IMG/VR virus record: IMGVR_UViG_3300030104_006170
Reading direction: 5' to 3' (one strand)
Source of the DNA: a virus
Taxonomy: Duplodnaviria > Caudoviricetes
Length of the DNA: 64,000 nt
The notes under the pieces are model-generated. The model did not search any database, had not been told where the DNA came from, and worked only from the letters and a program-made list of their open reading frames with translations. A program made the translations under genes and the position numbers. Within the stretch, counting starts at the first letter, position 1, and each line of letters opens with the position of its first letter. Below, in pieces: positions 14,457 through 33,752 of this stretch.

Positions 14457-15377
14457 CTAAAAGTTAGTTATTGTACTAAACGCTTGACTAAAATCAATAT
14501 TGTTTCCTCTATTTTGTTTTACTTCATATAATTGTCCATTAAACTGGTCTCTTACTTCATATAAGTCATATTGCATGTATATGTTGTCAGCACCAGATAA
14601 ATCATAGAGAGTGTAAATTCCATTATCGATAGATTTGGCTTGATTTCCATACAGTGCGATAGCTAGTGTATCGAAATCGTGGTCTACCATTTCTATGTCG
14701 AGTACGGTTGGGTTAAAGTAAGTGTTAGTGATTATGACTGATTGTCCTGGTTGTCCTATAAAAGGAATAGCATTTGGGTTATTAGATGGTGCACTTGTAG
14801 GTGTTAGGGTACAATAAACCAAATTAGTCTTTGCATTTGTATATACGTATCTAGGTGATGTTTGACTAGGGTTGGTGTTATTTTGTTCTACTGTTGTACA
14901 ATAAAAATTAGAAGTAACTATTCTGTAAAAATTATTTATTTTTGCTCCACTATCTGCATCTAAGTATTCTATTCTATAACCTACTAAATCCATAGGTGAA
15001 AATCTATTTCTAAATTGTATAGGTATACTATTTAAATCAAATACCAGACCTTTCACATTAGGTAGTGATGATAATATACCACAATCTAATATAGTAGTTC
15101 TTATTTCTATTGGTCTTATATAAACAGTATATACACCTTTATTAGAAAATACAGCTGAAGGTAATTTTAAATCGTATAAACCACCCAATATTTCTCCTGC
15201 TGGTCCACCTGTTTGTAGTCCATTATGTACTATAGGTGTTAATACACTTGCTGCGTTTATTTCAAAAACAGAAACAGGGGAACTTGCATCTCGGTTTGCC
15301 TGTTGATGTACTAATATTTGTACGTCTTCAACTTTTACGTCCGCTGGTCTTTTAATTCCGTATGCTCCTAATGCCAT
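14457..15377 (-). CDS. Hypothetical virion structural protein
   Basis: 306-aa ORF tightly packed between structural genes; no recognisable catalytic motif. Confidence 0.7.
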   Translation of the reverse strand: MALGAYGIKRPADVKVEDVQILVHQQANRDASSPVSVFEINAASVLTPIVHNGLQTGGPAGEILGGLYDLKLPSAVFSNKGVYTVYIRPIEIRTTILDCGILSSLPNVKGLVFDLNSIPIQFRNRFSPMDLVGYRIEYLDADSGAKINNFYRIVTSNFYCTTVEQNNTNPSQTSPRYVYTNAKTNLVYCTLTPTSAPSNNPNAIPFIGQPGQSVIITNTYFNPTVLDIEMVDHDFDTLAIALYGNQAKSIDNGIYTLYDLSGADNIYMQYDLYEVRDQFNGQLYEVKQNRGNNIDFSQAFSTITNF

Positions 15378-15380
15378 AGT

Positions 15381-15602
15381 TTATGGTTGTTTTTCTATTT
15401 TATAATATCCGTACCCGTGTAGTTCTAAATCTCCAGTACTATTTATTTGTCCTAATCTTTGTGGTTTTTCAAATACGGTTATTTTACCTCTTTCAATAAA
15501 TATATTTGACCTTACTTCCGGTCTTTGACAAACATTCATTAATACCTCTAATTTTGTTAGGGGTAAAATACATCCTACTGTTTTTACTTCTGTTAATGCC
15601 AT
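15381..15602 (-). CDS. Small structural protein or detached C-terminal domain
   Basis: 73-aa ORF with its own upstream TATTTAT motif (15616-15622); abuts the 306-aa gene. Confidence 0.7.
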   Translation of the reverse strand: MALTEVKTVGCILPLTKLEVLMNVCQRPEVRSNIFIERGKITVFEKPQRLGQINSTGDLELHGYGYYKIEKQP

Positions 15603-15631
15603 TACTTATTTTATAATAAATATCATAACAC

Positions 15632-16264
15632 TTATTTCTCTACTAGTTCTGATGTAGGAAAATATTTTTTATATTCTCTTAGATAAATTTCATCGTCGTA
15701 TTTAAAACCATTATTAATTCTGGTTATTTGTTTTTGTGATGGAAATTGTAGTTTAGTAACCCACAGTCCATTAATAACTTCTTCTTCTATATTCCAATTA
15801 GAAACTATCAATCCGTTTCTTTTAACGTGTTCTGCATAGGCAAGACCTACTTTTTCAAAACTATATGGTTTACAATTTTCTATACCTCCTCTGTAACAAA
15901 TTTTATTTAGTTCTACATTTTCTCTATTTTGGTAATAAATGTCTATGTAAAAATCACAATCCTCTAATGCTATTCTAGATAAATCTATCAAAGTATCCCT
16001 AATTAGTTCTAAAGTATTCTCACCATCGTCCACTAAAATAATATCTATATCCCAACTTTGCCAAGGCAGATTCCCTTTTATATAGTTTGGGAATGAACCA
16101 GTTAGTAATAAGTCAAAATTATTAAAATATGGTTTTTCTTCTATAATACTTAACCATTTTTCAAATCTTCTTAACGTTGGTCTATATATTTTCTTATTTA
16201 CTGATATAGGCCCTACTTCAAATCTAAAAAATCTTCCAAATTCTATTTCTCTCCTTATACTCAT
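15632..16264 (-). CDS. DNA polymerase beta-superfamily nucleotidyltransferase
   Basis: LLLTGSF followed by WDIDIILV (hGS..DxD) and a later candidate third Asp (YIDIY). Confidence 0.65.
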   Translation of the reverse strand: MSIRREIEFGRFFRFEVGPISVNKKIYRPTLRRFEKWLSIIEEKPYFNNFDLLLTGSFPNYIKGNLPWQSWDIDIILVDDGENTLELIRDTLIDLSRIALEDCDFYIDIYYQNRENVELNKICYRGGIENCKPYSFEKVGLAYAEHVKRNGLIVSNWNIEEEVINGLWVTKLQFPSQKQITRINNGFKYDDEIYLREYKKYFPTSELVEK

Positions 16265-16265
16265 A

Positions 16266-19200
16266 TTAACTTAACTCTGTAGGGCCATCACTCACAGAAG
16301 GCATACATTTACATTTATTCCAATCCCAGTAATATCCCTTAGCACAACTTTCAGTTTGTATACAAGGTTCTTCTGTTGGTTCTAAATCATCATCGTGTGG
16401 ACCAATTATTATTGGGACACAACTACAATCTGCTTGTGACCAAACTTGTCCCAGAGGACATGCCCACGATGGTGGTACACAGCACTTGGATGGTGATTGT
16501 GAAGTCCAACCAATACCCAACCAAAACTCACAATCACAAGGAACAGATGAGGTATTTAAGGTTTGGTAACTCCAAGTACCATCTTTTTTAAGTTTTCCAC
16601 AACACTCTTCACATGGTTGGTCTGGTGGTGGACAAGGTGCATTTTGACATGCTTGTAAACTACTATATGCACCACCTTGTGTTGGTATACAGTCATAATT
16701 ACTTGGGTTACCTAAAAGTGGTCTATGTACACAATCGTATTTTAGAGTACCACCGTTATTACATGGGAATACCCCTGTAGATGAACAACTAACCCAACCA
16801 GTCCATTTTCCGGTAAATGTAGAATACATTCCATAATATTCTAATATTCCATCACCATTCATATCGTATATACTACAAGCTTGAGATTGGGAATGAGGGT
16901 CAGATGCCCACGCCTCACCAAAATCATCTACGTCTGATGATTCCATACAACAATAACAACAACCGTCAGTTGGGTCTACGACACACTGGTTATGTGTAAA
17001 ATGTTGATGTCCTACGGTTTTCCACTGTAAAGGTAAAGTTGCTCCCCAGTTAGTAGCCATGTAAGTGTCACAATTATCACAATCTACTGTTGTCCCGGTA
17101 GTTGAGTTGCAAGGACCTCCGTCAGTTGTGATTTTACAACCCATCCACATTCCCCCACCTATATTTACACCTACATGTAATGATGGTTGATGTTGGGATT
17201 TACAGATTGGTTTTGATGGTGTAGGTCCTGAATTTCCTGGACCTGAACCTCCTGGACCTGAACCTCCTGGACCTGAGTGAGATATAGTACCATCATTCCT
17301 TGTAATTGCATGGTCGTCATCATGTGGGTCTGGTCCGGTAAAAGCTCTAACACAACAATAACAACAACCGTCAGTTGGGTCTGTCACACAATCATTCTCT
17401 ACATAGTGTGGGTTGAATGTGGAGTACCATATACCTTCATAATCTATAGGTCCTGATAAATAACCAGATAAGGTTTGTGCACAATCTTCACAACCTGATT
17501 TACAATCTGCTACACATAGTGATAAAGCGTTTGGTCCTTGGTATTGAGCTGTACCTGTATTATTTTGAACACAATTACACGTACCAGGACAATTAACACA
17601 ATCGTAACCTATATCTGGTGGTGTTGTTGGACATAGTGGGTCACAAGGCCACCATATTGGTCCTCTATTTTGAGCATTTTGTTCTTGGGTTGTTGCTGGT
17701 GTTGTTGTACCATTATAAAATAATCCTAATAAGTGGTTTTGGTAGATTTGACTAGGTGAATAATTCATAATATCACTACCAGTAAAATGACAACTATCAC
17801 AAACTAAGACATAACAACAATCATCATATGGGTCTTGGACTATATCAAATGCATTATATATGGTTGCTGTAAACCAAAGACCCACAATATTTGTTGAGGC
17901 TAGTGGAAGAGTTTGTGTAAAACCTATACTATATGTACCATTATGTTTGATGTAAGTAGGTGTTATAAAAGAAGACGGTGGACACTCTTTAGCACAGTCA
18001 TCTGATTGTATTTCACAACAATTTGATATTGGTATTCCGTTTTGACAATCAGATAGGGAAGAATATGTACCAAACAGAGGATTGGCTACACATTTACATA
18101 AACCATTATTACCCACAACACAGTCCCATCTTGTTTTTCCTGTATAACAACACTCATTAACTTGAGCTTCACAATCTGCTTGACTTGCGTATCCACCACC
18201 AGGAGAAGCTGTTTGTACACATTTACACCCTGTTGGTGTACCGAAGTCTATACATTCCCATTCTTTAGTTACTCCAGTATAACAACAATTATGGTTTACA
18301 GCTGTCTGACAATCGTGTAAAGTTGCATATTGGTCAAAAGGCCCACCTAGAACACAATTACAATCAGGTGTGCATTTCCATCTATCTGGCATTGTGTTAC
18401 CTGAACAACATGTAGTTGGGTCATTTTCACAATCAAATAAAGCGTTTGGTCCGGTATAACTACCCATCCCTGCTGGTACAACAACACATTCACATTTAAA
18501 ATTATGTGCACCTACAGGACCTATAACTGGAATTTGTCTACACTCATACTCATCATACCTTACCGTACAACAATTTTGAGAATTATAACACTCTGTTTGA
18601 GAACTAAATCCTGTTATATCATTTGGAATGAATACACAGTCACAAATTTTTGGGTCGCATTTCCAACTACCACAACAAGGGTCATTATTTAAAGTAGCTT
18701 GACAATCGGGTAGATTATTAAAAGCTCCTGTAGGACCAGTAATCATAACACAAGTACATGGACTTTGTCTACACTCACATGGGTCTAGTGTTATAGTCAT
18801 ACATTTGTCTCTAGTTTTAGAACCCCATACAAGATTTATCCCTAAACACACATCATCAAAACTACTTGATAAACTCAATAGTGTACCGGTTGGTGATGTT
18901 ACACCAGCACCTGCTAAACTAGTAATCATGGAACTCCATGTGTTATAAGTTTGAGGTATCCCTAAGCTCATTCCAGCACTGATATGTATACCTATTGGTC
19001 CACCTGGAGTAACTAATGGTAATCCATTGTCTAAACATGGATTAGTTGGACTAAATGGGAATCCCCCATAAGGAAATTTAATATTGTATATATTAGTAGT
19101 TTGTAAGTAGGGTACCCCACTAGGATTTCCTATCATTTGTAGTACGTCATGTTGGTCTAAGAGTGTGGTTGTTGGTGTAATTTTTGTTAGGTTAGAACAA

Positions 19201-22200
19201 CTATCAGTACTAACACCTGGTATACAATCATAAGTGTTTTGTATAACACCTGGCACACATTTAGGGTCACACGGTACCCACTGTAAACTTCCTGTTCCAC
19301 CTCCTGGCCAAACAGGTGTATTTGTACTTAAATCATTAATGTATGCTTGATAATAGAAATAAGGTGGTATTGTCCAGTCTTGAGAGTTTTCAGAAACATT
19401 CACATAACAACATCTAGTATTATCAAAATTAAATGTCACAACATCACCTGGATTATACGCTTGTCCTGAAACCCACGCTGGAGCTCCAGTAATCATATTA
19501 ACTGGTGTAGAACCAAGTACCCAACTAGCAGTACCTACGTCCCACATTTGATAAGTTATTGGACTATTTGTAGTACATTCATAACATTCACAACAAGTAC
19601 CATCATCACCTAATAAAGTTAATCCTTGAACGTAGATATCACAATCAGCCATATTAGAAAATGGGTAAGGTGCACATGAAGGTGAAATTGGTGCAAGTAC
19701 AAAAGTACATTGACATTGTGGTACTGGTTGTACACAGTCCCCACAAACAAAATTACATTCGTTAGTACATGCTGCAGCATTAGTACCATAGAAAGACACA
19801 CATGGATTACCATCACTTCCTGTTGGTGCTGCACCTATATAAGATATACATCCGTCAATTGCGTGACAACAATATTCTGTTTGTGGTTCAAAACAAGTTT
19901 TACTACCAGTTATTGTAAATTGTTGTTGTCCACAATCACCTGGTGATAATGAACTTGGTAATCCTGTCCCACAAGATGCAGTTCCACCACTACAGAATTG
20001 GTCACCCCATGAACATGCTACAACCGCTGGGTCACCACATAAATCACAGAAACCAGTACCTGGAGGTGCACAATCACAACAAAATCTACAAAATTCTTGA
20101 CATTGTGCTTGTGATGGGAATCCCTGACCTACAGGTAAATTACCTAAAGCTACTGCCCAATTATAGTTATTGTTTGGGTCTGAAGGTCCACCAGCTCCTT
20201 GACCATAAGCTTGTGATTGATATGATGATGATTGTGATGCGAAATATGAACTAGGTTGACATGGTTGAGACCCTGGGGTATTGTAAAGTCCGGCATCCGC
20301 ACCCGCATGGTCACACCACCATTCTTCAACTTGGTTTTGACATAAACAATCGGTATTTGCCAATTCACAAGCCGCAGCTGAAGGATAAGTAACTGCCGCT
20401 AAAGACATCGGTATGAATTGACAAGTTTGTGCACCTTGGGTATTACACTCCCAGGTACACCATTCTTGACACCCACTTAAACTAGAGAATGTACCTCCGG
20501 TACCATAGACTGGATAACAACCTACACCCCCCACACAAGGATTACCATTTACAGTTGGACAGTTACAACTATGGTCACATTCCCAAGTGGTTATACCAGT
20601 TGTAGAACCAGTACAACAATCAAATAATCCTGTGGACAATTGTGTTTGACATGTATCTAAAGAATCGTAAGGCCAAAAATATGAACTTGTAACCTGGAAA
20701 ACTATACCTGGTTGTACAGGTGGATAAGTAAATGGAAATGGTGAATACCCATTAAAATAAATCCCTAAATCACCTGTTCCTGGTGAATATATATCATTTA
20801 AATAATCTTGTAAAACTGTGCAGTTTGAAATTTCTGCTGGTCCTCCTGTTGGTGGTCCAGGGTCTGCACAATAACAATCAGCTCTACATTGGTCATTGGA
20901 AACACCAATTAATGGTGTACCACAAGTAGACGCGGTATAACAATTATTTTGTGTTTGCCATATAGAGATGTTCATGGCAGCTGGTGGGTTAAACACACAA
21001 TTAGAAGTTACACAACCAGAAGTTGTACATTGATATGTTTGTGCTGAAGTAGGTCCTTCACAAGGACCGCAAGGGTCTCCAATAACCGGTGTTGGTGTAG
21101 ATGGGTCATAGGATGGTAACCTTTCACATGTTTGCCAACAATTTGGTGTTCCGTCAGGGTAATCTCCATCATCTGGTGGACTAGAGTCACAATCATAACC
21201 TGTTCCCGTTGTATCAGGAGGACACATACATATCCAACAACATTCAGCTGTATTTGCGTCACCATAACTTACCGTTTCAAACATACTATAAGTGTTGGCG
21301 TTAGACCATGGTCCTGACCAAGTAAAAGCTGTGGTTATTGGTATTCCATTAATTGTTAACCAATCTTGACATGCACAATTACAAGTTTCTTCTAGTGGTG
21401 CACAACAAGTCATACCTGTTGTACTTAGTGGGTCTGGACATAATGAGTTAACACAATCTACCATATCACAATAAGGTAAACCTGGATGGTCCGCAAAACA
21501 CTGTACAATACCAGTTAGTCCATTCATTGTATTTACGTAAGCTGGAGAACAACAGTTAACGAAACCAGGACCAGTTGTATCATCTAAATCAGTTTGTGAT
21601 ATCCAATAACATGGGGTTTGTCCACCTCCACCACCTTGTAGTGCAGGTCCAGTAGTTGTAAAAGATGTGTAACCCAGGTATCCAGCTTGTAGTGGGTCAT
21701 CCTCACATACCGCCCTACAACATTCTGTTGCATTACAACATTCTTCAAAAGAAGTATAACCTGTAGGATTACCAGCTGGGTCTGTTGGTGAACCTGGAGA
21801 CCAAGTAACACCAACTTGTGTCATTAAGTATAGACTAGCATAATACATACACCCACCAACTTGTTGTCCTATTTGTGCGGGTGGATTGGTGTCATCATAA
21901 ACAAAACAATCATATCCACCAGGACATGTACAAGCACTTTGACATTGTTGTGCGGAGAGGAAGGTTGGTACGTTTGTCCACGCTGCTGGAACCCAAGGGT
22001 CAGTACCTGTATTAGATACTGGCCAGTAAGGACAATCTAGAGCATTTGTAACTGGGTCTTGATATGGGTAACATGGTACGTTTGAACCGTTTATAACATT
22101 TAAACAGTCACAAACATAACATTCTGTCGCACAAGAACATACCATTTCACAGTCTTGTAATCCTTGTGGTGTATATGGGTAACCACAATTTAATGTATAA

Positions 22201-24950
22201 CAAGGTTGACAGGGGTCACAAATTGGGTCACACTTGTATCCACAAGGGGTGTTACCTACACCTAACCATTGTGGGTTAGCAGCGTAACAGTCAGCTTCAG
22301 TTGTATAACCTGTACCAACAAATACCGGTACACATCCTTCTTCACAATTATAAACCCACATAGTATAATCACAACAACCTGTATAGGTTCCTGCTGAGTT
22401 TGTAAATCCAGCGTTACAATCATTTATATTATAAGGGTCAAAAAATAATTCAAAGGTAAATGCCGCATAGTCTATAAAGTTTAAAAAAGGTGCTGGTGTA
22501 GGTGGTAAAGTTTGCATTACAGTAAACACATTATCTACATAAAATGTTGTACCATTTATAAGGTCATCAGTACATGAAAGTAAACCACAACAATTATTAG
22601 AACTTGCTGGGGTACTAGTAACACAAGAATACGCTGGTGGTTCACACCACGCTAAACAATCAAGTTCATTATCAAAAACCGGACCTTGTGTTGGGTCTAA
22701 TGCACTAGGGTCATTGTATAGTGGGTGTGCTGATGTCATAGCTGAACATCCTTGACAGGAATATTGGTCGATACAAATATATCTATCTTCACAACAATTA
22801 CCTAAGTAAAAAGTATCCATACAATCTTCAAATGCGGCAAAACCTACACTTGTACAAGGTCCCGTACTAGTTGACCCCGTACCAGGTACTAGTTGACATG
22901 AAAGACTAGATGCTGTTAAAGCTGATACTGGTGGACACACCCAACTAGAACATCCAATATAGTCCCAGTATTGATTGTTGGTTAACCCAGATGGTGGTGG
23001 TAAAGTACCACCCGACAAAGCTCTATAACAATTACCCCATTGACCTAAGGTAAATTGTCCTGTAGTATATACATTACCATTACTATATACTCCAGCTGGA
23101 CCTACTGGTGAGATAGTTGGATAAGCGTTCCAAGTGTTGGTTGGGTCATAACAAGGTATGGATGTAAACTCTGGACATGCTTCACATTCTGGGGTACAAG
23201 CCTCCCAAATATGTTCCGTAGGTTGTCCATTATTCCACCAAACTCCTTGTACTAAGTCTGTTGGTTTTATACCAGCCCAAGGGTCTATAGTACCACCTGT
23301 CTGATTTATATCTTGTACTGCCATATAACAACAACATTCACCCCACGTTGAGTCAAATACTATATCTCCTTTAACATAATTTGTTGTTGCAGACCATTCA
23401 CCCCAATTAGTATTAATCATTGGGTTAAAACTTATTGGTTGTGGTAGGTTTGTTACCCTATCTATATATTCATCTTTTGTTTCACAGTAAGTACAATCAC
23501 CTATTTCACATTTTACACAATCAAAAGCACCAAAAGCAAAAGCATCTAAACCACAACTTGTAGCTTCGTATAAAGTAACACCATTACTAAAATCATAAAA
23601 TGTTATTGGTGTGTTAGTACCTATACTAATTGTGTAAGCGGTATATTGTGTATTTTCCACAGTAATCCTACCCATAACTCCCTGTTCTATTTGATTAGTT
23701 ATTGGATTTATTACTTCACCCATTAATGGTACATCTACATTTATCTGGTAACCAGGTGGTAAATTACCGGTTTGTAATGATGTATATGACTGAAATGCCC
23801 CTAGCAAACTTTGTGTATTACCTGTAACCTCAAAACAGTTACTATTATTTCCACCACCAAATATAGGGGACATACCACTATATTGTAAGATGTCAGTACC
23901 AGAATCTAGAGGTGAAAAAGGATAAGCTCCAAAATATGTATTAGTACCTATTGGTCCACTAGGACCTACTACAGGTACATTACTAGGTGGTATACCACCA
24001 GAAGCTTGTAATGTATTATAAGGCATAAAGGGTACTGTTATAGCCTGAGATACTGATGTTGGTCCCCACTCATTTTCATGTGTTATGGTAATTCTTCGTG
24101 TACCTACACCCGCATAAGTGTGTGGTACAGGATTTGTTAGATTAGGGAATTGTAAAGTTTCACAACAAGGGTCACCAAATGCGTTGGTACATGGTGGAAC
24201 TGGACAATCACAAGGACAGTCTCCCCAATTTATAGTATAAGGAGAATTCTGATAACTCTTATAGTAACCAAAATCTGTGGTATTATAAATTTGTATCTGG
24301 TTACCCATAGCTGTAGTAGCGGTAACTACAAAATTAGAAAAAATATCTTTTTGTCCCAAATTTCCGTCCCAAATATCGTAATGCCCTATATCATTAAAAT
24401 CTTGGTCTAAAAAAACTGGAACTTGATGTAAATCATTAAAAACAGGTGGTGGGCAAAAACAAGATATTGTATTTGGTGTTAGGTGTGCATTAGTTTGGGA
24501 ATTTAATGGTTGTGAGAGTGTAGAATTTGTTAAAGAAAACACACTTATTAAATCGTCGTAACTTTCACCGGTAAATGTCATTACCCCAGATTGGTATAAA
24601 TTTAACCCAGCAAATATAACATAAGGATGAGACTCCACATCTAAACAAAATGGTTGATTTAATGTTGGTACATTACCATATGGTGGTGGTGCACCCATTA
24701 CTGGCATAGTAGTAGTATCATTTAATAGGATACATGGATTTGTTGACGAACATCCAGTTAGTTCTGTTGGGAAGTTATTCATGTCACCTTGTAAAGCGTC
24801 CTGTACTTGACTAAATGTAGAGTTGTACATTGTTAATCCTGAACAGTTAGGACTTGTATTAATAGGGTAGAAATTGGTTCCACCAGTACAAGGTACTGTG
24901 TAGTAAACACTAGGATTACTTCTTTTTATTCTATATTTGTATACTTCCAT
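16266..24950 (-). CDS. Giant (2894 aa) Cys/Pro-rich modular fibre/adhesin-like virion protein
   Basis: N-terminal PKD-like segment (YTINWGD..HTY), about 7 CBM5/12-like W..Y..GD.V motifs, roughly twenty [YW]xC..G-[YF]-S..C repeats counted by eye, and CxC-type C-terminal repeats. Confidence 0.75.
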   Translation of the reverse strand: MEVYKYRIKRSNPSVYYTVPCTGGTNFYPINTSPNCSGLTMYNSTFSQVQDALQGDMNNFPTELTGCSSTNPCILLNDTTTMPVMGAPPPYGNVPTLNQPFCLDVESHPYVIFAGLNLYQSGVMTFTGESYDDLISVFSLTNSTLSQPLNSQTNAHLTPNTISCFCPPPVFNDLHQVPVFLDQDFNDIGHYDIWDGNLGQKDIFSNFVVTATTAMGNQIQIYNTTDFGYYKSYQNSPYTINWGDCPCDCPVPPCTNAFGDPCCETLQFPNLTNPVPHTYAGVGTRRITITHENEWGPTSVSQAITVPFMPYNTLQASGGIPPSNVPVVGPSGPIGTNTYFGAYPFSPLDSGTDILQYSGMSPIFGGGNNSNCFEVTGNTQSLLGAFQSYTSLQTGNLPPGYQINVDVPLMGEVINPITNQIEQGVMGRITVENTQYTAYTISIGTNTPITFYDFSNGVTLYEATSCGLDAFAFGAFDCVKCEIGDCTYCETKDEYIDRVTNLPQPISFNPMINTNWGEWSATTNYVKGDIVFDSTWGECCCYMAVQDINQTGGTIDPWAGIKPTDLVQGVWWNNGQPTEHIWEACTPECEACPEFTSIPCYDPTNTWNAYPTISPVGPAGVYSNGNVYTTGQFTLGQWGNCYRALSGGTLPPPSGLTNNQYWDYIGCSSWVCPPVSALTASSLSCQLVPGTGSTSTGPCTSVGFAAFEDCMDTFYLGNCCEDRYICIDQYSCQGCSAMTSAHPLYNDPSALDPTQGPVFDNELDCLAWCEPPAYSCVTSTPASSNNCCGLLSCTDDLINGTTFYVDNVFTVMQTLPPTPAPFLNFIDYAAFTFELFFDPYNINDCNAGFTNSAGTYTGCCDYTMWVYNCEEGCVPVFVGTGYTTEADCYAANPQWLGVGNTPCGYKCDPICDPCQPCYTLNCGYPYTPQGLQDCEMVCSCATECYVCDCLNVINGSNVPCYPYQDPVTNALDCPYWPVSNTGTDPWVPAAWTNVPTFLSAQQCQSACTCPGGYDCFVYDDTNPPAQIGQQVGGCMYYASLYLMTQVGVTWSPGSPTDPAGNPTGYTSFEECCNATECCRAVCEDDPLQAGYLGYTSFTTTGPALQGGGGGQTPCYWISQTDLDDTTGPGFVNCCSPAYVNTMNGLTGIVQCFADHPGLPYCDMVDCVNSLCPDPLSTTGMTCCAPLEETCNCACQDWLTINGIPITTAFTWSGPWSNANTYSMFETVSYGDANTAECCWICMCPPDTTGTGYDCDSSPPDDGDYPDGTPNCWQTCERLPSYDPSTPTPVIGDPCGPCEGPTSAQTYQCTTSGCVTSNCVFNPPAAMNISIWQTQNNCYTASTCGTPLIGVSNDQCRADCYCADPGPPTGGPAEISNCTVLQDYLNDIYSPGTGDLGIYFNGYSPFPFTYPPVQPGIVFQVTSSYFWPYDSLDTCQTQLSTGLFDCCTGSTTGITTWECDHSCNCPTVNGNPCVGGVGCYPVYGTGGTFSSLSGCQEWCTWECNTQGAQTCQFIPMSLAAVTYPSAAACELANTDCLCQNQVEEWWCDHAGADAGLYNTPGSQPCQPSSYFASQSSSYQSQAYGQGAGGPSDPNNNYNWAVALGNLPVGQGFPSQAQCQEFCRFCCDCAPPGTGFCDLCGDPAVVACSWGDQFCSGGTASCGTGLPSSLSPGDCGQQQFTITGSKTCFEPQTEYCCHAIDGCISYIGAAPTGSDGNPCVSFYGTNAAACTNECNFVCGDCVQPVPQCQCTFVLAPISPSCAPYPFSNMADCDIYVQGLTLLGDDGTCCECYECTTNSPITYQMWDVGTASWVLGSTPVNMITGAPAWVSGQAYNPGDVVTFNFDNTRCCYVNVSENSQDWTIPPYFYYQAYINDLSTNTPVWPGGGTGSLQWVPCDPKCVPGVIQNTYDCIPGVSTDSCSNLTKITPTTTLLDQHDVLQMIGNPSGVPYLQTTNIYNIKFPYGGFPFSPTNPCLDNGLPLVTPGGPIGIHISAGMSLGIPQTYNTWSSMITSLAGAGVTSPTGTLLSLSSSFDDVCLGINLVWGSKTRDKCMTITLDPCECRQSPCTCVMITGPTGAFNNLPDCQATLNNDPCCGSWKCDPKICDCVFIPNDITGFSSQTECYNSQNCCTVRYDEYECRQIPVIGPVGAHNFKCECVVVPAGMGSYTGPNALFDCENDPTTCCSGNTMPDRWKCTPDCNCVLGGPFDQYATLHDCQTAVNHNCCYTGVTKEWECIDFGTPTGCKCVQTASPGGGYASQADCEAQVNECCYTGKTRWDCVVGNNGLCKCVANPLFGTYSSLSDCQNGIPISNCCEIQSDDCAKECPPSSFITPTYIKHNGTYSIGFTQTLPLASTNIVGLWFTATIYNAFDIVQDPYDDCCYVLVCDSCHFTGSDIMNYSPSQIYQNHLLGLFYNGTTTPATTQEQNAQNRGPIWWPCDPLCPTTPPDIGYDCVNCPGTCNCVQNNTGTAQYQGPNALSLCVADCKSGCEDCAQTLSGYLSGPIDYEGIWYSTFNPHYVENDCVTDPTDGCCYCCVRAFTGPDPHDDDHAITRNDGTISHSGPGGSGPGGSGPGNSGPTPSKPICKSQHQPSLHVGVNIGGGMWMGCKITTDGGPCNSTTGTTVDCDNCDTYMATNWGATLPLQWKTVGHQHFTHNQCVVDPTDGCCYCCMESSDVDDFGEAWASDPHSQSQACSIYDMNGDGILEYYGMYSTFTGKWTGWVSCSSTGVFPCNNGGTLKYDCVHRPLLGNPSNYDCIPTQGGAYSSLQACQNAPCPPPDQPCEECCGKLKKDGTWSYQTLNTSSVPCDCEFWLGIGWTSQSPSKCCVPPSWACPLGQVWSQADCSCVPIIIGPHDDDLEPTEEPCIQTESCAKGYYWDWNKCKCMPSVSDGPTELS
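16947..17382. repeat. Two identical 31-bp direct repeats (16947-16977 and 17352-17382)
   Basis: acaacaataacaacaaccgtcagttgggtct occurs twice and encodes DPTDGCCYCC on the minus strand. Confidence 0.9.
17236..17276. repeat. 15-bp tandem repeat encoding a Gly-Pro-Ser linker
   Basis: cctggacctgaacct x2 plus a partial copy; protein SGPGGSGPGGSGPGNSGP. Confidence 0.9.
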
Positions 24951-24953
24951 ATA

Positions 24954-25898
24954 TTAAGGATTTACATATTCAAAAAATTTTATTGGTGTTCCATTGGGTA
25001 CTTGTAGCGTACCTGGTACTGCTCCACTTGGAGTTTGACCTGGTAAACCAGTCCCTTTTACTCCACCACCACCCCCCATAGCCATAATTGCTTCATTAAA
25101 TTCAGTCACCACATAACGATATTTTGGGTCGGTTGTAGATGCATTACTGGGATTTATATATAATTTAACTTTATAATAGAACCATTCTGGGTAACTTAAT
25201 ATTTCACCGTTTACAATTTCACTTAGAGTTGGTTGTTGGTTTATCATATTGGTTACTTTACCAGTTTTTGCGTTAAAAAATTTACAACTCATATAAAACT
25301 CATTAATTTCTGTTAGTTCCCTATCTTTTAACCATTGTATATAATAATTTTCACTTCTACCATGTAGGGGACCCAATAAAGCAATAGGAACATACACCCC
25401 ATACATTGGTATTGGAATGTTGTCTGCTATTTGTGAGTAATATTCTGTGGGGTCTTGTAATGGGTCTACTGCTGTTTCTACCTTTATACAATTATTTAAA
25501 GACATTATATTGGTGAACATTATTTTTTGTTCTTTTCTTAATGGTGAATCATAAAAATCAAACTTAAAAAAACTTCTAGTAAATGCTTTTTTAGGTTTTG
25601 CTAATTCTTTATCTGCAAAACCTAAAACGTTAAAGTTTGGTGTGGGTATTGGGTATTCTTGATTTGCATAATCCCAAAAATTAAATTCATAAGATATGGT
25701 ATTACCACTAATATTATTTTTATAAGCATATCTAGTTGTTTCATAATCTTGTATAACATTTATATTATCTTGTAACTCGACTTCTTCCCAAGTTCTAACT
25801 AATTGTTCGTTACCTATTTCATCAAAAGTTTGACCTATAGGTATAGTTATAGACTTATCTTTAGTAGAAGCTTTTATGTTTAATCTATTGACAGCCAT
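24954..25898 (-). CDS. Hypothetical virion structural protein
   Basis: 314-aa ORF overlapping the upstream gene's end; Gly/Pro-rich C-terminal loop; structural cluster. Confidence 0.7.
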   Translation of the reverse strand: MAVNRLNIKASTKDKSITIPIGQTFDEIGNEQLVRTWEEVELQDNINVIQDYETTRYAYKNNISGNTISYEFNFWDYANQEYPIPTPNFNVLGFADKELAKPKKAFTRSFFKFDFYDSPLRKEQKIMFTNIMSLNNCIKVETAVDPLQDPTEYYSQIADNIPIPMYGVYVPIALLGPLHGRSENYYIQWLKDRELTEINEFYMSCKFFNAKTGKVTNMINQQPTLSEIVNGEILSYPEWFYYKVKLYINPSNASTTDPKYRYVVTEFNEAIMAMGGGGGVKGTGLPGQTPSGAVPGTLQVPNGTPIKFFEYVNP

Positions 25899-27669
25899 CT
25901 GTGTATTCAGTTAATATACTTATTGTTCCTGAGGTTAGTGGGATTAATGCTGGTCCTACAGCCTCTATTTTAAATTCTAAATTATGGTATGGGTAGTGTG
26001 CATCATTTAAATAAGGATAACTCACACCATTATCCCCATCCTCATAAGCTTCTACCGGTAAAATTTCTCTCCACCTAAATGTTTCCTCTGATAAAGAATA
26101 AACAGCATACTGGGGTGATGTAAACAGACTATCATTATAACTTATATAATTTGAGAATTTTCTTATAGGAATTTTGTGGTGTGGGTTGTATTTAAATATA
26201 GATTCTACAAAATCATACCCTGGTGTACCTCCTACTTCATACATAGTATCCCTATTAAATTTTAGTGAATGCCCTATTTCAGAAATTACCCTTTCTTTTA
26301 ATTCAAATGGGTTATACTCAGCAAAAGCACCCCTAAATGTAGAACCACTAAGTGGTAGTGGATTAACTCCTTGATTTCCAGTTTGTGTTAAATTAACTGG
26401 TGATGTCCCATTATCCACAAATGGGTCCACAACACCATTCTTTTTAAAATTCCAACCCCAACCATAACCTGCTGGAGAATTGACTCCCGGATTCCAATCC
26501 CATATGAGATTTCTATTTGTAGTTAAAATTGTTAAATAAAATTCAGTTAATGGTCTATTAAATTGGTCATAGTAGTCATCACTATTAATATTATAATTAC
26601 AATTCCATAAAAATGAATCGTAGGCTTGGGTTAGTACAGATTTTTGTATGTAATCTGGTGTTCTTTTTCTAGGAAATACCCTACCTTTTTTATTATATAT
26701 TCCTCTTTCAAACCCTGTTTTATCTACTGTAAGGTCATTTGGGTTTGTTATTAGCTTATGTATTTGGCAATAATATTCAGATTTTGTTTCCAACATATTT
26801 TCTGGATTAATTACTCTTTTAAGTGTACCCACTGGATTTGCTGGTATTGATGTTACGTCTAGACCAACTGTTGTAATATTCATCACGTAGTCCTCTGAAT
26901 TTTCCAAACCGTTACCCAAATAATCTACTTTAAATATAGTTTGTGGACCTGCTGGGCTTGGGAAGGTTACTGGAATAGTAACATTAGTCATTAGATTTGC
27001 ACTACCCATTGTAGTAGCTCCTGACTGTATTTCTATATATTCTCCTGGTAATACCCCGTGTCTTACTGGTGTGATTATTTGTAAAACTTCCTTACCATCT
27101 GTATTGGTTGTTATAGGTATAAAAGGTATACCATCTCCCGATACAAACTGCATACCAGAATTCGTAGAATAGTCGGTATAGTACATCATTCTTTGATTGG
27201 AGTCTGCATCGTTAACATAAGATATATATTGTACCCAATTATCTTGATGTGCTAAAAGTGGTTCCCAACCTGCTTGACTTGCAAAAATACCATATCTTTT
27301 AGGTGGTATTATTGTAAATGTACTATCCGGTGGTAAACCAGAACAAGTGGTTGGTGGTACACCTGCTATTTGTGGACAACCCAAAAAATCTGGAATAAAG
27401 TACATTGACCTCATAAATGTAGTATCCTGAGTACTCCCACTAATTATATTATTGTAAAGTATATCTATTTTTCCATATAACCTATATTGTGTTGAATAGG
27501 CCCTTTCAAAATCAAATTGGTCTCTAAGGTTCAAAACTAAATTTCTATCCCCCTCATGTATTTGTTTTTGTGTAGATTCTAAAAATGGTTGTAACTGCAC
27601 GTCGTTATTTGGTGAACCAGCAAATCTAGCTTCACCTCTTACAATTCTTATGTTTTTTTCGTTACTCAT
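25885..27669 (-). CDS. Hypothetical virion structural protein
   Basis: 594-aa ORF with overlapping start/stop junctions to both neighbours. Confidence 0.7.
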   Translation of the reverse strand: MSNEKNIRIVRGEARFAGSPNNDVQLQPFLESTQKQIHEGDRNLVLNLRDQFDFERAYSTQYRLYGKIDILYNNIISGSTQDTTFMRSMYFIPDFLGCPQIAGVPPTTCSGLPPDSTFTIIPPKRYGIFASQAGWEPLLAHQDNWVQYISYVNDADSNQRMMYYTDYSTNSGMQFVSGDGIPFIPITTNTDGKEVLQIITPVRHGVLPGEYIEIQSGATTMGSANLMTNVTIPVTFPSPAGPQTIFKVDYLGNGLENSEDYVMNITTVGLDVTSIPANPVGTLKRVINPENMLETKSEYYCQIHKLITNPNDLTVDKTGFERGIYNKKGRVFPRKRTPDYIQKSVLTQAYDSFLWNCNYNINSDDYYDQFNRPLTEFYLTILTTNRNLIWDWNPGVNSPAGYGWGWNFKKNGVVDPFVDNGTSPVNLTQTGNQGVNPLPLSGSTFRGAFAEYNPFELKERVISEIGHSLKFNRDTMYEVGGTPGYDFVESIFKYNPHHKIPIRKFSNYISYNDSLFTSPQYAVYSLSEETFRWREILPVEAYEDGDNGVSYPYLNDAHYPYHNLEFKIEAVGPALIPLTSGTISILTEYTDGCQ

Positions 27670-30600
27670 TATATTACTGTATCAGCTAATTCTTCATCAA
27701 CATATTTTCTCACAAAGGTGTTAAATGATGTAGCACCTGGTCTTAATCCAAAATAATAAAATAGTGGTTGGGAGAACACATAGGACCTACTGTCTGGAAT
27801 AGTACCATTCATGACAGGATAATTATTGCCGGCAAATGTAAATGGTGGGTTACCCATATAGTGTTGGAAGTTTCCGTCACTCACATATGGTGCAGATGCC
27901 GGTGCTGGATGTAGTACCGAACCGTCTTCTTCATCAAATGATATTGCTGGTAGTATAGACATTGCTGGTCCTGGTATACCAAATGCATATCTATATTCTC
28001 CAGTAGTACCTAACCAGTCATTCCAAACTGTACCCCAACCTCCGTATGGTTGACCACCTACGGTAGCAGTTGAACTGACATTATCCAAATGCCATGGATA
28101 AAATGGAACATTCTGACTGGATGCGGATAATTCCATTGTTAAACAATCTATCAAATCTTGACCATTCATAATCACTTGAGTGGAAGCCGTAAATAATAGT
28201 GGCTCCCATAAAAGAGTGTGTGTAAAGTTTCCTGGGTCATTTATGTCATTTACATTAAGTGCATTTGGCACATATGTACCCCCAACAAAATTTGGTGATG
28301 GGTATGTTAATCCACTATTTGGTGCTACATTTGATGGTGTTGTAGATATATTAAGTTGGTAATCACATTCACAAGCTGTCGTACCTACATTAGCTTCATA
28401 TCCTACCACACCCAACATACAGTTTTGCATAAGTGCTTGTGCGACATCACCACCAATTTCGTATTCTGGACGTGGGAAGAAAGTAGACATTGAAGCTAGT
28501 GGTTGTTGCATTTTAAGGTTATAGGTGTCAGAAACAAGTTCTGTAATGTCTTGGAATGTTGTACTGCCTATCTGGTCAGTAACTGAACATTCATTAACGT
28601 AATTAGGGTCCATACAGATTTGTTGTATACATTGATTTCTGGAACCCATATCTACCATTGTCGTTGGGAATAGTATGTGTCTATCCATATCACCTTTACC
28701 GTGCATATCACTTGTGTTGTTACCACCCCAGAACTGATACCATGGTTTATAAACTCCGTCAGTATCACCAATATAATTACCTTGATTTACACCGATACCA
28801 CTAACTTGGAAAGGGGTTGACCTATAATAGAAAGCATGTTCTGTTGGGTGTAGATAGGTTAATTTTTTACACCACGATGAATTGGTGGCATAGGTATCAT
28901 TTGCTGGGTCATACTCTACTTTAGCTCTAAACTGGAATTGGTATAAGAATCCACTTACCCAACTATTTTCCCAAAAATAATTCATAACACCATTACACAA
29001 TGCTTGTGCTATTTTTTCCCTTCTAGTCCATTCTATTAAAACTTTAAGATTGTAGTTTGGTCCGATACAAGCTGGGCTAAAACATATTAATTTTACATAA
29101 CACCCACCACCAGCAACCCCATCATTTTGTGTGCCTGATGTTTGGGGGTCATTGACATCATCCGACCTAAAACCATAATGGTCTGGACAACAAACTCTTG
29201 TTTCGTCACTTTCGGAACAACAATCGTGTTCCCATTTACCACCAAAGTCATCACCAGTAGCACCATTACCTGGTGGACATTGTGGAGCTGCTGGACAATC
29301 TGGAGGACCAGATGCTGTGGTATTACCGGATGCTCCCCATGGTAATGAACCAGGGCAAGGCCATTGTGAGGCTAGGTATATAAGAGAATCTGTTACTGCC
29401 ATATCACCCATAGTCCTACATAAACATTTTTCACATTCAGGATATTTTGTTTGTCTTAAAGTAAACAATACAAATCCCATTCTTAAACCAAAATATCTAC
29501 AATCAGTACCACAACCAAAACAATTACCACCACTAATACAAATTTGTCCACATTCTTCTGGTGGTGCACCATTAGGTCCAATTAGGGAAGCCATATCTAA
29601 TATTGTAAAACCCCAAAGAGTGATATGAATACAATATATTGCACACCAAAGCCAACATAATAACCACATAATAAATAATATAACCCCCAGTATTAAGCTT
29701 AAGAATACAGCTAGCGTTGATATTAGTATTGTTAAGAACATGTAAATCATCCCTAGAAAATCTATAAGGAACATCCAAAGGAATACCATTAAACTAGGAG
29801 CTCTTACCGCACTATTTATTGGGAAAAACATTGCTGTGGTAGCACATTGTTGGTCCGCTTCAGGTAATATATTTTTTATACCCACAAATTCTCTTCTACC
29901 TCCATGTTTAATATGGTCATGAAATTGTGAAAAAGTATATACCCTGTTAAATGTCATGTCATAAAAAACATCTTTTGCTGCAGGCATTAAATTTCTTTGT
30001 GCCCAAGGATTGTAGTCACTATAATTTACAGAAAAAGCGTAAGAAGAAGGGTCTATACCTGGCCAATCCCCATTATCGTCACCTGCCCATGGGTCATAAA
30101 ATTCCCTGATGTTAGGTACTAGGTAACTAGCTATTCTTCTTTGTCTTGCTCCTCCCGTTGCTTGTTCAGGTCTTATTCTAAATCTACATCTCGCTCTAGT
30201 AGGTACCCCTATACTTGGGTCATCTGAAAGTACCATTTCCCCAAATTCATTAGTTGTCATATAATCTAAATTCATTGGTATGTGGACTAAGAAAGAACCT
30301 GTATCGTCAATTACCCTACCCCCATTAGGTAAGTAAAATCTTTCAAGTATTGGGACTTCTCCACCTAGAGGTGCACCCCACCCTCCTGCTGTATAAGCGG
30401 GGTAAGCGTTTGGGTCATCTTGGAAAAATGGGGTATACCTTATACAATCTATTATCCCTGGTTTGGATATTAAACTACATAGTTCACCCATTGCTGCTTT
30501 TGGTCTACAGTTTTTATTTACAGAATCTTTGTCAGTATCAGATGCGGTACTACCCATAAACACAGCATTAGGTTCTAATTTAAACCCTGTTTGTCCTAAA

Positions 30601-33284: not shown

Positions 33285-33752
33285 CTATAAATCTATTATA
33301 ACAAAATCTTTAGTTTCAAACACACCATCTCCTGATGTGTAATCAATTCTAACTCTCATGGAGTAATTTCTTTGTGCTTCACCAACAAAACTCATATTAC
33401 CATCATCCATCGATAAATCTGTAGTTTGTTCATTTAATTTTTCTTCAGCTTTTAAATCTTCTAAAGTTTTTACCTCAACACTATTTATGGTTAATCCCGG
33501 TATATACTTATTGACCGCTTCCCTTATTTCTCTCTCAATAGATATTTTAGTGGTGGTATCCATTAATTCAAAAACATATTTATTTAAATTAGTACCAAAA
33601 TCAGGTAAAAAATACCTAGACCCTTTTGGGGTAAGTACTAAATGAATTAGGTTAGACCTCACTTCACTATCCGTATCTGTGTTTAGTCCTAAAAAAAATC
33701 CTTCTGGACTATCTACAAATGGAAATGTTATACCGTATCTTTGTGTTGGCAT
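33285..33752 (-). CDS. Baseplate wedge protein, T4 gp25 / P2 gpW-like
   Basis: VRSNLIHLVLTPKGSRYFLPDFGTNL..FE motif; directly precedes the gp6-like gene. Confidence 0.9.
   Translation of the reverse strand: MPTQRYGITFPFVDSPEGFFLGLNTDTDSEVRSNLIHLVLTPKGSRYFLPDFGTNLNKYVFELMDTTTKISIEREIREAVNKYIPGLTINSVEVKTLEDLKAEEKLNEQTTDLSMDDGNMSFVGEAQRNYSMRVRIDYTSGDGVFETKDFVIIDL

What the first reader, a model, noticed from the sequence alone, without database searches (positions are those of the whole stretch)
16266..24950. 2894-aa Cys/Pro-rich, eukaryote-extracellular-like modular virion protein
Seen: very high Cys density (CC, CxC, CxxC); roughly twenty [YW]xC...G-[YF]-x-S-xxx-C units reminiscent of the Kunitz C-terminal F.S.eeC...C pattern, including a tandem run near 18030-18760; CxC-W repeats at the end; a DMNGDG loop; PHDDD twice. 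Established: phage virions assemble in a reducing cytoplasm and most fibres are Cys-poor. Inference: a beads-on-a-string filament stabilised by metal binding or by disulfides formed at lysis, representing an uncharacterised class of long adhesive or decoy appendage.
Basis: partly seen in the sequence, partly recalled or inferred. Interest (0 to 1): 0.78.

Follow-up and report, generated by a model that had tools for sequence, protein, structure and literature searches.

The report
Giant cysteine-rich phage baseplate fibre protein
A widespread, uncultured marine jumbo phage encodes, among its baseplate genes, a 2,894-residue protein with 246 highly conserved cysteines, built partly from a small cysteine-stapled module that no curated library describes and that also occurs in secreted bacterial proteins; it is most likely a long tail appendage held together by disulfide bonds.

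Summary
The ORF is real: 16266-24950 on the minus strand, 2,894 aa, with 8.5% Cys, 8.9% Pro and 2.1% Lys+Arg. Neighbouring genes have 0-3% Cys.

- **Family:** at least 45 metagenomic homologues of 1.65-3.0 kaa are all Cys-rich. Cys is the best-conserved residue (94.5%), and some Cys are lost in pairs.
- **Context:** the window is a T4-like marine jumbo myovirus of about 0.3 Mb. The gene always sits in the same block: gp25, gp6, 1220 aa, 594 aa, 314 aa, giant, 73 aa, 306 aa, then further large ORFs.
- **Gradient:** conservation falls from the N terminus to the C terminus, and this is the fastest-evolving gene of the block, as for tail fibres.
- **Repeat:** HMMs find 15 copies of a hairpin-helix unit (0-1 in shuffles). 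Six are in tandem at aa 2056-2315, each with six invariant Cys.
- **Relatives of the unit:** it is homologous (hhalign 97.5%) to a 4-Cys module in T9SS-secreted bacterial proteins and in other phage-like contigs. Pfam, NCBIfam, PHROGs and PDB sequences have no model for it.
- **Fold:** the nearest named fold is Kunitz/BPTI, weakly (Z up to 3.2, TM 0.58). Kunitz membership fails on sequence and Cys spacing.
- **Other modules:** six CBM5/12-like modules score below Pfam's threshold.

Disulfide stabilisation is favoured over metal binding but is not shown. Virion association rests on gene order only. Earlier scan notes cover this same stretch, not other DNA.

The parts
16266..24950 (-). Giant Cys/Pro-rich ORF, 2,894 aa (P0001), 246 Cys
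   Evidence: 45 homologues
22851..24950 (-). N-terminal conserved region, aa 1-700. Lower Cys content. Presumed baseplate-attachment part (inference). A possible PKD-like segment at about aa 215-306 is an unverified lead.
   Evidence: 40-53% identity to distant homologues; 41-44% over aa 1-673 or so (up to 705) in P0029-P0038; Atlas feature lead 0.83, no Pfam PKD hit
19251..22850 (-). Central Cys-rich core, aa 701-1900, colinear through most of the family (a few distant members align only to about aa 1100-1450)
   Evidence: 30-41% identity to distant homologues
16269..19250 (-). Variable C-terminal third, aa 1901-2894. Presumed ligand- or host-binding part (inference).
   Evidence: 16-32% identity and 12-65% coverage in distant homologues
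18006..18785 (-). Six tandem six-Cys hairpin-helix units, aa 2056-2315
   Evidence: HMM scores 31-49 bits; alignment A3; AF2 unit model pLDDT 76
20346..20537 (-). Two dispersed units, aa 1472-1535. The first is a canonical 4-Cys module.
   Evidence: 19.2 and 6.5 bits
22278..22352 (-). Dispersed degenerate unit, aa 867-891
17490..17606 (-). Dispersed unit, aa 2449-2487
16596..16739 (-). Dispersed unit, aa 2738-2785 (24 bits)
19341..19487 (-). CBM5/12-like module with a vicinal CC, aa 1822-1870 (the best of six)
   Evidence: PF02839 E 1.3e-4, 22.4 bits against a cut-off of 26.2
23271..23417 (-). CBM5/12-like module, aa 512-560
21201..21332 (-). CBM5/12-like module, aa 1207-1250
17751..17888 (-). 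CBM5/12-like module, aa 2355-2400
17316..17441 (-). CBM5/12-like module with CCYCC, aa 2504-2545
   Evidence: E 7e-13 to the next copy
16911..17036 (-). CBM5/12-like module with CCYCC, aa 2639-2680
33285..33752 (-). gp25-like baseplate wedge gene (context)
   Evidence: PF04965 E 1.3e-11
31445..33283 (-). gp6-like Baseplate_J gene (context)
   Evidence: PF04865 E 3e-10
24954..31331 (-). Three syntenic upstream ORFs of 1220, 594 and 314 aa with no known family
14457..16264 (-). Downstream ORFs: 210 aa (optional), 73 aa (15381-15602, always present), 306 aa

Best explanation
The gene encodes a giant, surface-exposed structural protein of the tail baseplate periphery, that is, a fibre or adhesin. 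The phage is an uncultured, cosmopolitan marine T4-like jumbo myovirus of about 0.3 Mb.

Proposed layout (inference):
- The conserved N-terminal 700 aa or so anchors the protein to the baseplate.
- The Cys-rich middle forms a shaft of many small domains.
- The fast-diverging C-terminal third contacts the host or another ligand. It carries six tandem six-Cys hairpin-helix units and several CBM5/12-like aromatic modules.

The cysteines are structural. Most likely they form intradomain disulfides, up to about 120 in all, that staple 30-45-residue microdomains too small to have a hydrophobic core.

The protein has no signal peptide and must be made in the cytoplasm. The disulfides would therefore form at or after lysis in oxic seawater, or through an oxidase not yet identified.

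Shown: the gene is real and conserved; the Cys are under strong constraint; the repeat and its relatives exist; the gene order is conserved. Inferred: virion location, disulfide chemistry, shape and binding role.
For: Cysteine constraint:
- Cys is 94.5% conserved across 14 homologues of 36-99% identity. Other residues are 39-74% conserved.
- All 45 homologues carry 6.2-8.8% Cys.
- Cys are lost in pairs. C917 and C922 are lost together in P0006, P0009, P0011 and P0012. C1318 and C1337 are lost only in P0012. The pairs 699/720 and 2773/2780 behave the same way.
- All six Cys are invariant in 71 units.

The unit and its relatives:
- The AF2 unit model is a beta-hairpin plus helix, pLDDT 76.
- The unit is homologous to a 4-Cys module: hhalign probability 97.5%, E 8.6e-12.
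- That module occurs in tandem in a protein with a signal-peptide-like N-terminus (read by eye) and a Por_Secre_tail (T9SS) sorting domain, so it is exported.
- It also occurs in a Por_Secre_tail Atlas cluster (TM 0.67) and a Uroviricota Atlas cluster (TM 0.66).
- It occurs in a 1,486-aa protein a few genes downstream of an adaptor-like gene (a faint hit) in a phage-like contig.

Against classic zinc sites: CxxC is not enriched and His is only 1.1%.

Context:
- The window carries T4-type genes: sheath, tube, gp25, gp6, a T4 baseplate protein, gp32 and DnaB.
- The same gene order holds in homologue contigs at only 30-33% identity.
- Conservation falls from N to C.
- It evolves fastest in the block: 33% identity, against 43-74% for its neighbours in the same comparison.

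Precedent: disulfide-linked baseplate and fibres in cyanophage Pam3 (PMC9942802). Tail-tube disulfides in a siphovirus (PMC13576161, abstract seen).
Against: - There is no virion proteomics and no cultured relative. tblastn against 50,697 phage records found nothing.
- No sequence match to any known fibre or baseplate family was found in Pfam, PHROGs or the PDB.
- The three upstream neighbours also have no identifiable family, so the T4 gp7/gp8/gp10 analogies rest on gene order alone.
- The tools did not return model coordinates, so no Cys-Cys distances or connectivity could be read.
- The total Cys count is odd in 22 of 46 family members, so not every Cys can be in an intrachain disulfide.
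- No thioredoxin or DsbA gene was found on the three partial relatives' contigs searched, which are 19-34% complete. The Erv/ALR search gave nothing, but its control did not ring either.
- The tandem-region model is poor, mean pLDDT 57.
Confidence: 0.55

Rival explanations
1. Same structural role, but the microdomains are held by bound metal (Zn or Fe-S type Cys clusters). This would suit folding in a reducing cytoplasm, with no disulfides needed.
For: The protein has no signal peptide and is made in the cytoplasm (sequence). No thiol oxidase was found in the available contigs. Six invariant Cys per unit could in principle form a binuclear site. The odd Cys totals in half of the family do not fit all-paired chemistry.
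Against: CxxC knuckles are not enriched and His is rare and poorly conserved. Cys losses come in twos, not in threes or fours. No zinc-finger or zinc-ribbon family is hit by more than one of the 71 units. The homologous 4-Cys module lives in exported T9SS cargo. The nearest named fold is a disulfide-rich one.
Confidence: 0.15
2. It is not a tail fibre. It could be a different virion component, such as a baseplate-internal scaffold or a head or neck decoration. It could also be a non-virion protein released at lysis, acting for example as a particle-binding or decoy matrix protein.
For: Virion location is inferred from gene order only. No similarity to any fibre family was found. The CBM5/12-like modules could bind environmental chitin rather than a host receptor.
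Against: The position between gp6-side wedge genes and further large structural ORFs is strictly conserved over deep divergence. The conserved N terminus, variable C terminus and fastest evolutionary rate fit a receptor-binding appendage. The extracellular-type composition argues against an internal protein.
Confidence: 0.2
3. The units are true Kunitz/BPTI domains, and the protein is a multi-headed protease inhibitor that protects the virion.
For: 19 of the 20 PDB chains with Z of 2 or more are Kunitz domains. A Kunitz_BPTI Atlas cluster matches at TM 0.58. The [YF]-x-S-x-x-[DE]-C helix-start motif is shared (sequence).
Against: Z is only 2.0-3.2. No PF00014 hit was found in 71 units or in the whole protein. 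The A3 profile finds no PDB sequence at E up to 10. The Cys spacing differs: C-x(2-17)-C-x-C-x(14-17)-C-x(3-10)-CC. The structural matches cover only the hairpin and C-terminal helix, so the N-terminal segment and protease-binding loop of Kunitz domains are missing.
Confidence: 0.03

Closest known systems
Tandem 4-Cys [WYF]xCxxGxC...Gx[YF]x[ST]LxxCQxxC modules of T9SS-secreted and phage-like metagenomic proteins (no curated family)
   Same: Homologous core of hairpin, G-x-Y-x-S motif and helix Cys: hhalign probability 97.5%, E 8.6e-12 over 28 columns. Both occur in tandem arrays. Atlas shape matches at TM 0.66-0.67.
   Different: The phage unit has six Cys, with CxC in strand 2 and a terminal CC instead of C-x3-C. 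It is 37-50 aa long rather than 26-32 aa. It sits in a cytoplasmically made protein that has no signal peptide.
Kunitz/BPTI domain (PF00014)
   Same: Beta-hairpin followed by a C-terminal helix that starts at [YF]-x-S-x-x-[DE]-C. Three presumed disulfides. It is the best named structural match.
   Different: No sequence-profile match. Different Cys spacing. Lacks the N-terminal segment and inhibitory loop. Z is only 2.0-3.2.
CBM5/12 chitin-binding modules (PF02839; for example the ChiA1 chitin-binding domain, PDB 1ed7)
   Same: The W-x(5-9)-Y-x-x-GD-x-V pattern occurs in six modules. Six of 46 instances hit PF02839 (best E 1.3e-4). Most of the weak PDB profile hits are chitinase or chitin-deacetylase chains, at positions that fit their binding modules.
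   Different: All hits are below the gathering score (22.4 against 26.2 bits). Every module carries an invariant vicinal CC, and two carry CCYCC, which is absent from canonical CBM5/12. Carbohydrate binding is untested.
T4-type baseplate-peripheral and fibre proteins (gp7-gp12, gp34-37)
   Same: Encoded after the gp25/gp6 wedge genes in a T4-like myovirus. Conserved N terminus and variable C terminus. Fastest-evolving gene of the block.
   Different: No detectable sequence similarity. 8.5% Cys, where its neighbours in the window have 0-3%. About three to five times longer than individual T4 fibre subunits (from general knowledge).
Disulfide-linked baseplate and tail fibres of cyanophage Pam3 (PMC9942802)
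   Same: An aquatic myophage whose wedge and fibres are held by disulfides, shown by cryo-EM, mass spectrometry and DTT treatment. This shows that phage tail disulfides exist even though assembly is cytoplasmic.
   Different: Pam3 uses a handful of inter- and intra-subunit disulfides in ordinary-sized proteins. Here there would be about a hundred intradomain disulfides in one chain. No homology between the two was tested or claimed.

Membership tests
Kunitz/BPTI (PF00014) | Match to the family profile | tested here: not met
   No PF00014 hit in the whole protein at E up to 1. None in 71 units at E up to 10.
Kunitz/BPTI (PF00014) | Six Cys with spacing C-x8-C-x15-C-x7-C-x12-C-x3-C (spacing quoted from general knowledge) | tested here: not met
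   Unit spacing is C-x(2-17)-C-x-C-x(14-17)-C-x(3-10)-CC.
Kunitz/BPTI (PF00014) | Fold: hairpin plus C-terminal helix, with the N-terminal segment and binding loop | tested here: inconclusive
   Z 2.0-3.2, rmsd 2.1-2.9 A over 32-40 residues, covering only the hairpin and helix part of Kunitz chains. TM 0.58.
CBM5/12 (PF02839) | Profile score above the gathering cut-off | tested here: not met
   Best 22.4 bits against a cut-off of 26.2. Six of 46 module instances hit below threshold.
CBM5/12 (PF02839) | Binding of chitin or cellulose through exposed aromatic residues | not testable with these tools
   The aromatic W/Y positions are conserved.
Phage tail fibre / baseplate-peripheral protein (functional class) | Gene lies in the baseplate/fibre module, with conserved gene order | tested here: met
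   The order gp25, gp6, 1220, 594, 314, giant, 73, 306, 1063, 1321 aa holds in the window and in L008-L010.
Phage tail fibre / baseplate-peripheral protein (functional class) | Conserved N-terminal anchor and variable C-terminal tip | tested here: met
   Identity to distant homologues is 40-53% at aa 1-700 and 16-32% after aa 1900, with low coverage there.
Phage tail fibre / baseplate-peripheral protein (functional class) | Sequence similarity to a described fibre family | tested here: not met
   No hit in PHROGs, Pfam, PDB sequences or tblastn against 50,697 phage records.
Phage tail fibre / baseplate-peripheral protein (functional class) | Physical presence in the virion | not testable with these tools
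   No isolate and no proteome.
Zinc-finger / zinc-ribbon modules | Paired CxxC (or C/H) knuckles | tested here: not met
   CxxC count is 24 against 20.7 (SD 4.1) in shuffles. His is 1.1% and the least conserved residue. Only one of 71 units gives a weak hit to any zinc-finger model (zf-RING_6, E 0.075), so none recurs.
Uncurated WxC-GxC-GxYxS-C Cys-hairpin-helix module | Profile-profile homology to the 4-Cys tandem modules | tested here: met
   hhalign A3 against A8: probability 97.5%, E 8.6e-12. 63 representative proteins at E up to 1e-3 among 1.84 billion.
PKD domain | Profile match | tested here: not met
   There is only an Atlas feature lead at 0.83. No PKD hit in 26 N-terminal regions.

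The most novel reading that the evidence does not exclude
This is a redox-matured phage appendage. A chain of about 2,900 residues would be made reduced in the cytoplasm and become a rigid fibre of about a hundred disulfide-stapled microdomains only on release into oxic seawater, or through a still unknown phage-encoded cytoplasmic oxidation route. Its CBM5/12-like modules might tether virions to chitinous marine particles where the hosts live. It would define a new disulfide-rich microdomain family shared between phages and bacterial T9SS cargo.
Probability: 0.2. Interest if true: 0.8.

Novelty: new variant of a known kind. Interest (0 to 1): 0.56.

Why it matters
Phage tail appendages are normally Cys-poor, beta-rich trimers. 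This family would show a different way to build one: very many small cystine-stapled domains of the kind usual in secreted proteins, made by a virus that assembles in a reducing cytoplasm.

That raises a concrete, testable question of where and when about a hundred disulfides form.

It also yields a compact 30-45-residue hairpin-helix module that Pfam, NCBIfam, PHROGs and the PDB do not describe. The module is shared with T9SS cargo, which hints at a Bacteroidota host and at module exchange between phage and host.

The phage is widespread. Near-identical DNA occurs in runs of marine, seawater, sponge and riverine metagenomes from 14 studies.

Tried and rejected
**Searches that found nothing**
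- Pfam on the whole protein gave only CBM_5_12 at E 0.052. PHROGs gave nothing for it or for six neighbours.
- tblastn against INPHARED phages: no match. phmmer against the PDB: none.
- N-terminal profile A2 against the PDB: none. A3 profile against the PDB: none at E up to 10.
- Profiles of the 1220-, 594- and 314-aa neighbours against the PDB gave nothing meaningful. Their T4 counterparts could therefore not be named.

**Structure searches**
- Foldseek against the PDB gave nothing with E below 0.5, for both the tandem model (pLDDT 57) and the unit model. BFVD gave nothing significant.

**Leads that stayed weak**
- The A8 profile gave only a weak hit (E 1.5) to the N terminus of insect hexosaminidase OfHex1. 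The same entries appear low in the Foldseek list. This is suggestive and unproven.
- The PKD-like lead from the Atlas was not confirmed by Pfam.

**Oxidase hunt, on contigs that are only 19-34% complete**
- The Erv/ALR search gave nothing, but its control failed to ring.
- Thioredoxin and DsbA were absent.
- Only sub-threshold glutaredoxin-like ORFs were found in two relatives.
- No whole genome is held for this window.

**Other**
- Cys parity is 24 even and 22 odd, which is uninformative.
- The 'gene fission' idea for the 73-aa ORF has no significant similarity to the giant family behind it, E 0.59 or worse.
- No RNA holder was listed among the sequencing runs.
- The window has no tRNA genes.
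Full report
**Observation.** The minus-strand ORF 16266-24950 is open for 2,894 codons. It starts 3 nt after the stop of the upstream gene, and its stop lies 1 nt from the next ATG. It has 246 Cys (8.5%), 8.9% Pro, 10% Thr and 9.5% Gly, but only 1.35% Lys and 0.8% Arg. The 31 other ORFs of the window have 0-4.6% Cys, most below 2%. The local rise in G+C (0.38-0.42 against 0.31-0.33) fits this amino-acid bias. CC, CxC and CxxC counts are at most about 2 SD above composition-preserving shuffles, and CxxC is not enriched. DMNGDG and PHDDD exist but are not kept beyond a few relatives, mostly the closest.

**A real, conserved family.** A word-indexed search of 5.8 billion proteins returned 45 homologues of 1,652-2,997 aa. 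They come from ENA, JGI, Tara and Logan assemblies, on contigs of up to 298 kb, and none is named. All have 6.2-8.8% Cys and 1-2.8% Lys+Arg. In an alignment of 15 members at 36-99% identity, Cys is 94.5% conserved, against 74% for Trp and 39-70% for the rest. 173 of the 246 Cys columns are invariant.

Where Cys are substituted, they tend to go in twos:
- C917 and C922 are lost together in P0006, P0009, P0011 and P0012.
- C1318 and C1337 are lost only in P0012.
- The pairs 699/720 and 2773/2780 behave the same way.

Total Cys parity is uninformative, at 24 even and 22 odd.

**Genomic setting.** The window is a T4-like myovirus. It carries:
- a sheath gene (PF04984/PF17482), a weak gp19 tube hit, gp25, gp6/Baseplate_J and a T4 baseplate protein;
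- gp32, a DnaB-like helicase, a weak RecA-like hit, a 5'-3' exonuclease and a class II ribonucleotide reductase;
- a 2,108-aa protein with a C-terminal M23 peptidase domain (weak, below Pfam's cut-off).

The sheath's nearest records are an uncultured 484-kb phage, Microcystis phage Mel-JY01 and Flavobacterium phages, at 30-37% identity. CheckV completeness of three related IMG/VR contigs is 19% for 61 kb, 32% for 102 kb and 34% for 128 kb. This implies a genome of about 320-380 kb. Near-identical DNA is present in runs from 14 studies, of marine, seawater, sponge and riverine metagenomes.

The giant gene always occupies the same slot. The order is ribonucleotide reductase, gp25, gp6 (612 aa), about 1,150-1,220 aa, about 590 aa, about 290-314 aa, giant, an optional 210-aa gene, 73 aa, 306 aa, about 1,100 aa and about 1,300 aa. 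This order holds even in contigs whose giant protein is only 30-33% identical.

In the comparison of the window with L009, the identities are:

| Gene | Identity |
|---|---|
| gp6 | 74% |
| 306-aa ORF | 71% |
| 1063-aa ORF (N-terminal 695 aa only) | 61% |
| 594-aa ORF | 58% |
| 1220-aa ORF | 55% |
| 314-aa ORF | 48% |
| 1321-aa ORF | 43% |
| giant | 33% |

The giant is therefore the fastest-evolving gene of the block. Along its length, identity to distant homologues falls from 40-53% (aa 1-700) to 30-41% (aa 700-1900), and then to 16-32% with 12-65% coverage (aa 1900-2894). This conserved-anchor, variable-tip pattern is the usual signature of tail fibres and receptor-binding proteins (established knowledge). 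Virion location itself is not shown.

**The repeat.** Six tandem units lie at aa 2056-2315. An iterated HMM on the family collected 138 units. An alignment of 71 non-redundant units has all six Cys invariant at a mean column identity of 26%. The pattern is [WY]-x-C, x(2-17), C-x-C-[VI], x(4-9), G-x-[YF]-x-[ST]-x-x-[DE]-C, x(3-10), CC. Three HMMs together find 15 units in P0001, against 0-1 in 30 shuffles. No other ORF of the window carries the unit.

AlphaFold2 gave a poor model for the whole array (pLDDT 57), but every unit in it repeats the pattern strand-strand-helix. A single unit folded with the 71-unit alignment gave pLDDT 76, with strands at residues 2-7 and 14-19 and a helix at 29-33.

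**Relatives of the unit.** A full HMMER scan of 1.84 billion representative proteins with the unit profile found only 63 proteins at E up to 1e-3. About a dozen are family members or fragments. The others are unrelated proteins with tandem 26-32-aa modules of the form [WYF]-x-C-x-x-G-x-C-[VI]...G-x-[YF]-x-[ST]-L-x-x-C-Q-x-x-C.
- One, P0080, has an N-terminal signal-peptide-like stretch (read by eye) and a Por_Secre_tail/TIGR04183 sorting domain, so it is T9SS cargo.
- Another, P0077 (1,486 aa, 19 matched stretches), lies a few genes downstream of a gene with a faint SU10-adaptor hit in a phage-like contig.

Profile-profile comparison of the six-Cys and four-Cys alignments gives probability 97.5% and E 8.6e-12 over 28 columns. 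Neither form is covered by Pfam, NCBIfam or PHROGs.

By shape, the Atlas returns three top matches: a Uroviricota cluster (TM 0.66), a Por_Secre_tail cluster (TM 0.67) and a Kunitz_BPTI cluster (TM 0.58). An exhaustive alignment to 48,161 PDB representatives gave only 20 chains with Z of 2 or more. 19 of these are Kunitz domains, at Z 2.0-3.2 and rmsd 2.1-2.9 A over 32-40 residues, and the match covers the Kunitz hairpin and C-terminal helix.

Membership fails on the profile and on Cys spacing, and the Z values are too low to claim homology.

**Second module type.** There are six modules of the form W-x(5-9)-[YF]-x-x-[GD][DE]-x-V...CC-[YW], at aa 512, 1207, 1822, 2355, 2504 and 2639. They are mutually similar, at E down to 7e-13. 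Six of 46 instances from eight family members hit PF02839 (CBM_5_12), the best at E 1.3e-4 and 22.4 bits against a cut-off of 26.2. The module profile's weak PDB hits (E 0.17-1.4) are a cyanobacterial protein (All3316, PDB 7b5h), the ChiA1 chitin-binding domain and chitin deacetylases. I call these modules CBM5/12-like, not members.

**Mechanism.** Domains of 30-45 residues cannot fold stably without cross-links (established knowledge). The following points favour disulfides over metal sites:
- the invariant Cys;
- the pairwise losses;
- the absence of CxxC and His signatures;
- the exported bacterial relatives;
- a disulfide-rich nearest fold.

The protein has no signal peptide, so oxidation would have to occur at or after lysis, or through an unknown oxidase. 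None was found on the partial contigs available.

Disulfides in phage tails are documented. In Pam3, the wedge and fibres are disulfide-linked, and DTT detaches the fibres (PMC9942802). The abstract of PMC13576161 reports that a siphovirus tail tube is cross-linked by cysteines. I therefore read the protein as a long baseplate-attached fibre or adhesin made of cystine-stapled beads, with confidence about 0.55. Metal stabilisation (0.15), another location or role (0.2) and a true Kunitz inhibitor array (0.03) remain as rivals.

**Novelty.** The kind of object, a modular phage appendage, is known. The construction is not described in the libraries or the literature searched: 8.5% Cys and a new microdomain shared with T9SS cargo. 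Earlier scan notes are first-reader notes on this same stretch read in another window, not on other DNA.

Noticed in passing
window 38889-39323 (-): The phage encodes an FKBP-type peptidyl-prolyl isomerase (PF00254, E 6e-21). It could help fold the Pro-rich (8.9%) giant protein. That link is speculation.
   Followed up: no
window 494-1276 (-): A 260-aa ORF with 4.6% Cys and dockerin / EF-hand / FG-GAP-like Ca-binding loops (Dockerin_1, E 7e-7). It lies at the far end of the same structural gene run.
   Followed up: no
window 27669-31331 (-): The 1,220-aa upstream neighbour has 3.2% Cys, and many of its Cys are invariant in six orthologues. It has no Pfam, PHROG or PDB match, and it does not carry the hairpin-helix unit.
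   Followed up: partly
window 15381-15602 (-): A 73-aa ORF is present in every related locus, at 67-93% identity. It has no significant similarity to the giant family (E 0.59 or worse), so BLAST does not support a 'detached C-terminus' origin. It might be a fibre chaperone or a small partner protein.
   Followed up: partly
window 15632-16264 (-): The 210-aa ORF directly after the giant gene is optional. It is absent from L008 and only 30% identical in L009/L010. It gave no Pfam hit at E up to 0.01, so a nucleotidyltransferase assignment is not supported by Pfam.
   Followed up: partly
window 42335-48661 (-): A 2,108-aa ORF with a weak C-terminal M23 peptidase hit (E 2.6e-5, 24.8 bits against a cut-off of 28.7). 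It is probably a tape-measure or tail-lysin fusion.
   Followed up: no
L010:1500-7400: In the 248-kb contig the gp25, gp6 and 1,134-aa genes are split into many short ORFs, while the near-identical L009 has them intact. This looks like assembly indel errors rather than biology.
   Followed up: no
P0124, P0111, P0108, P0112, P0129: A set of small and medium metagenomic proteins begin with a conserved helix motif (..EEKNRIR.LHE..) and are followed by one or more six-Cys or four-Cys units. Their context in L014 is a run of unannotated genes, all on one strand.
   Followed up: partly
PDB 3vtr/3s6t, N terminus: The N terminus of insect beta-N-acetylhexosaminidase OfHex1 reads W-S-C-D-N-G-K-C-V ... 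S-L-E-A-C-K-M-F-C. This is the four-Cys module pattern, and it was picked up weakly by both the profile search and Foldseek. It may be a solved example of the module.
   Followed up: partly
L008 (record name ends in _c, 289,928 bp): Contig names ending in _c and _l may mark circular and linear assemblies. If so, a complete genome of about 290 kb of a related phage exists in ENA.
   Followed up: no
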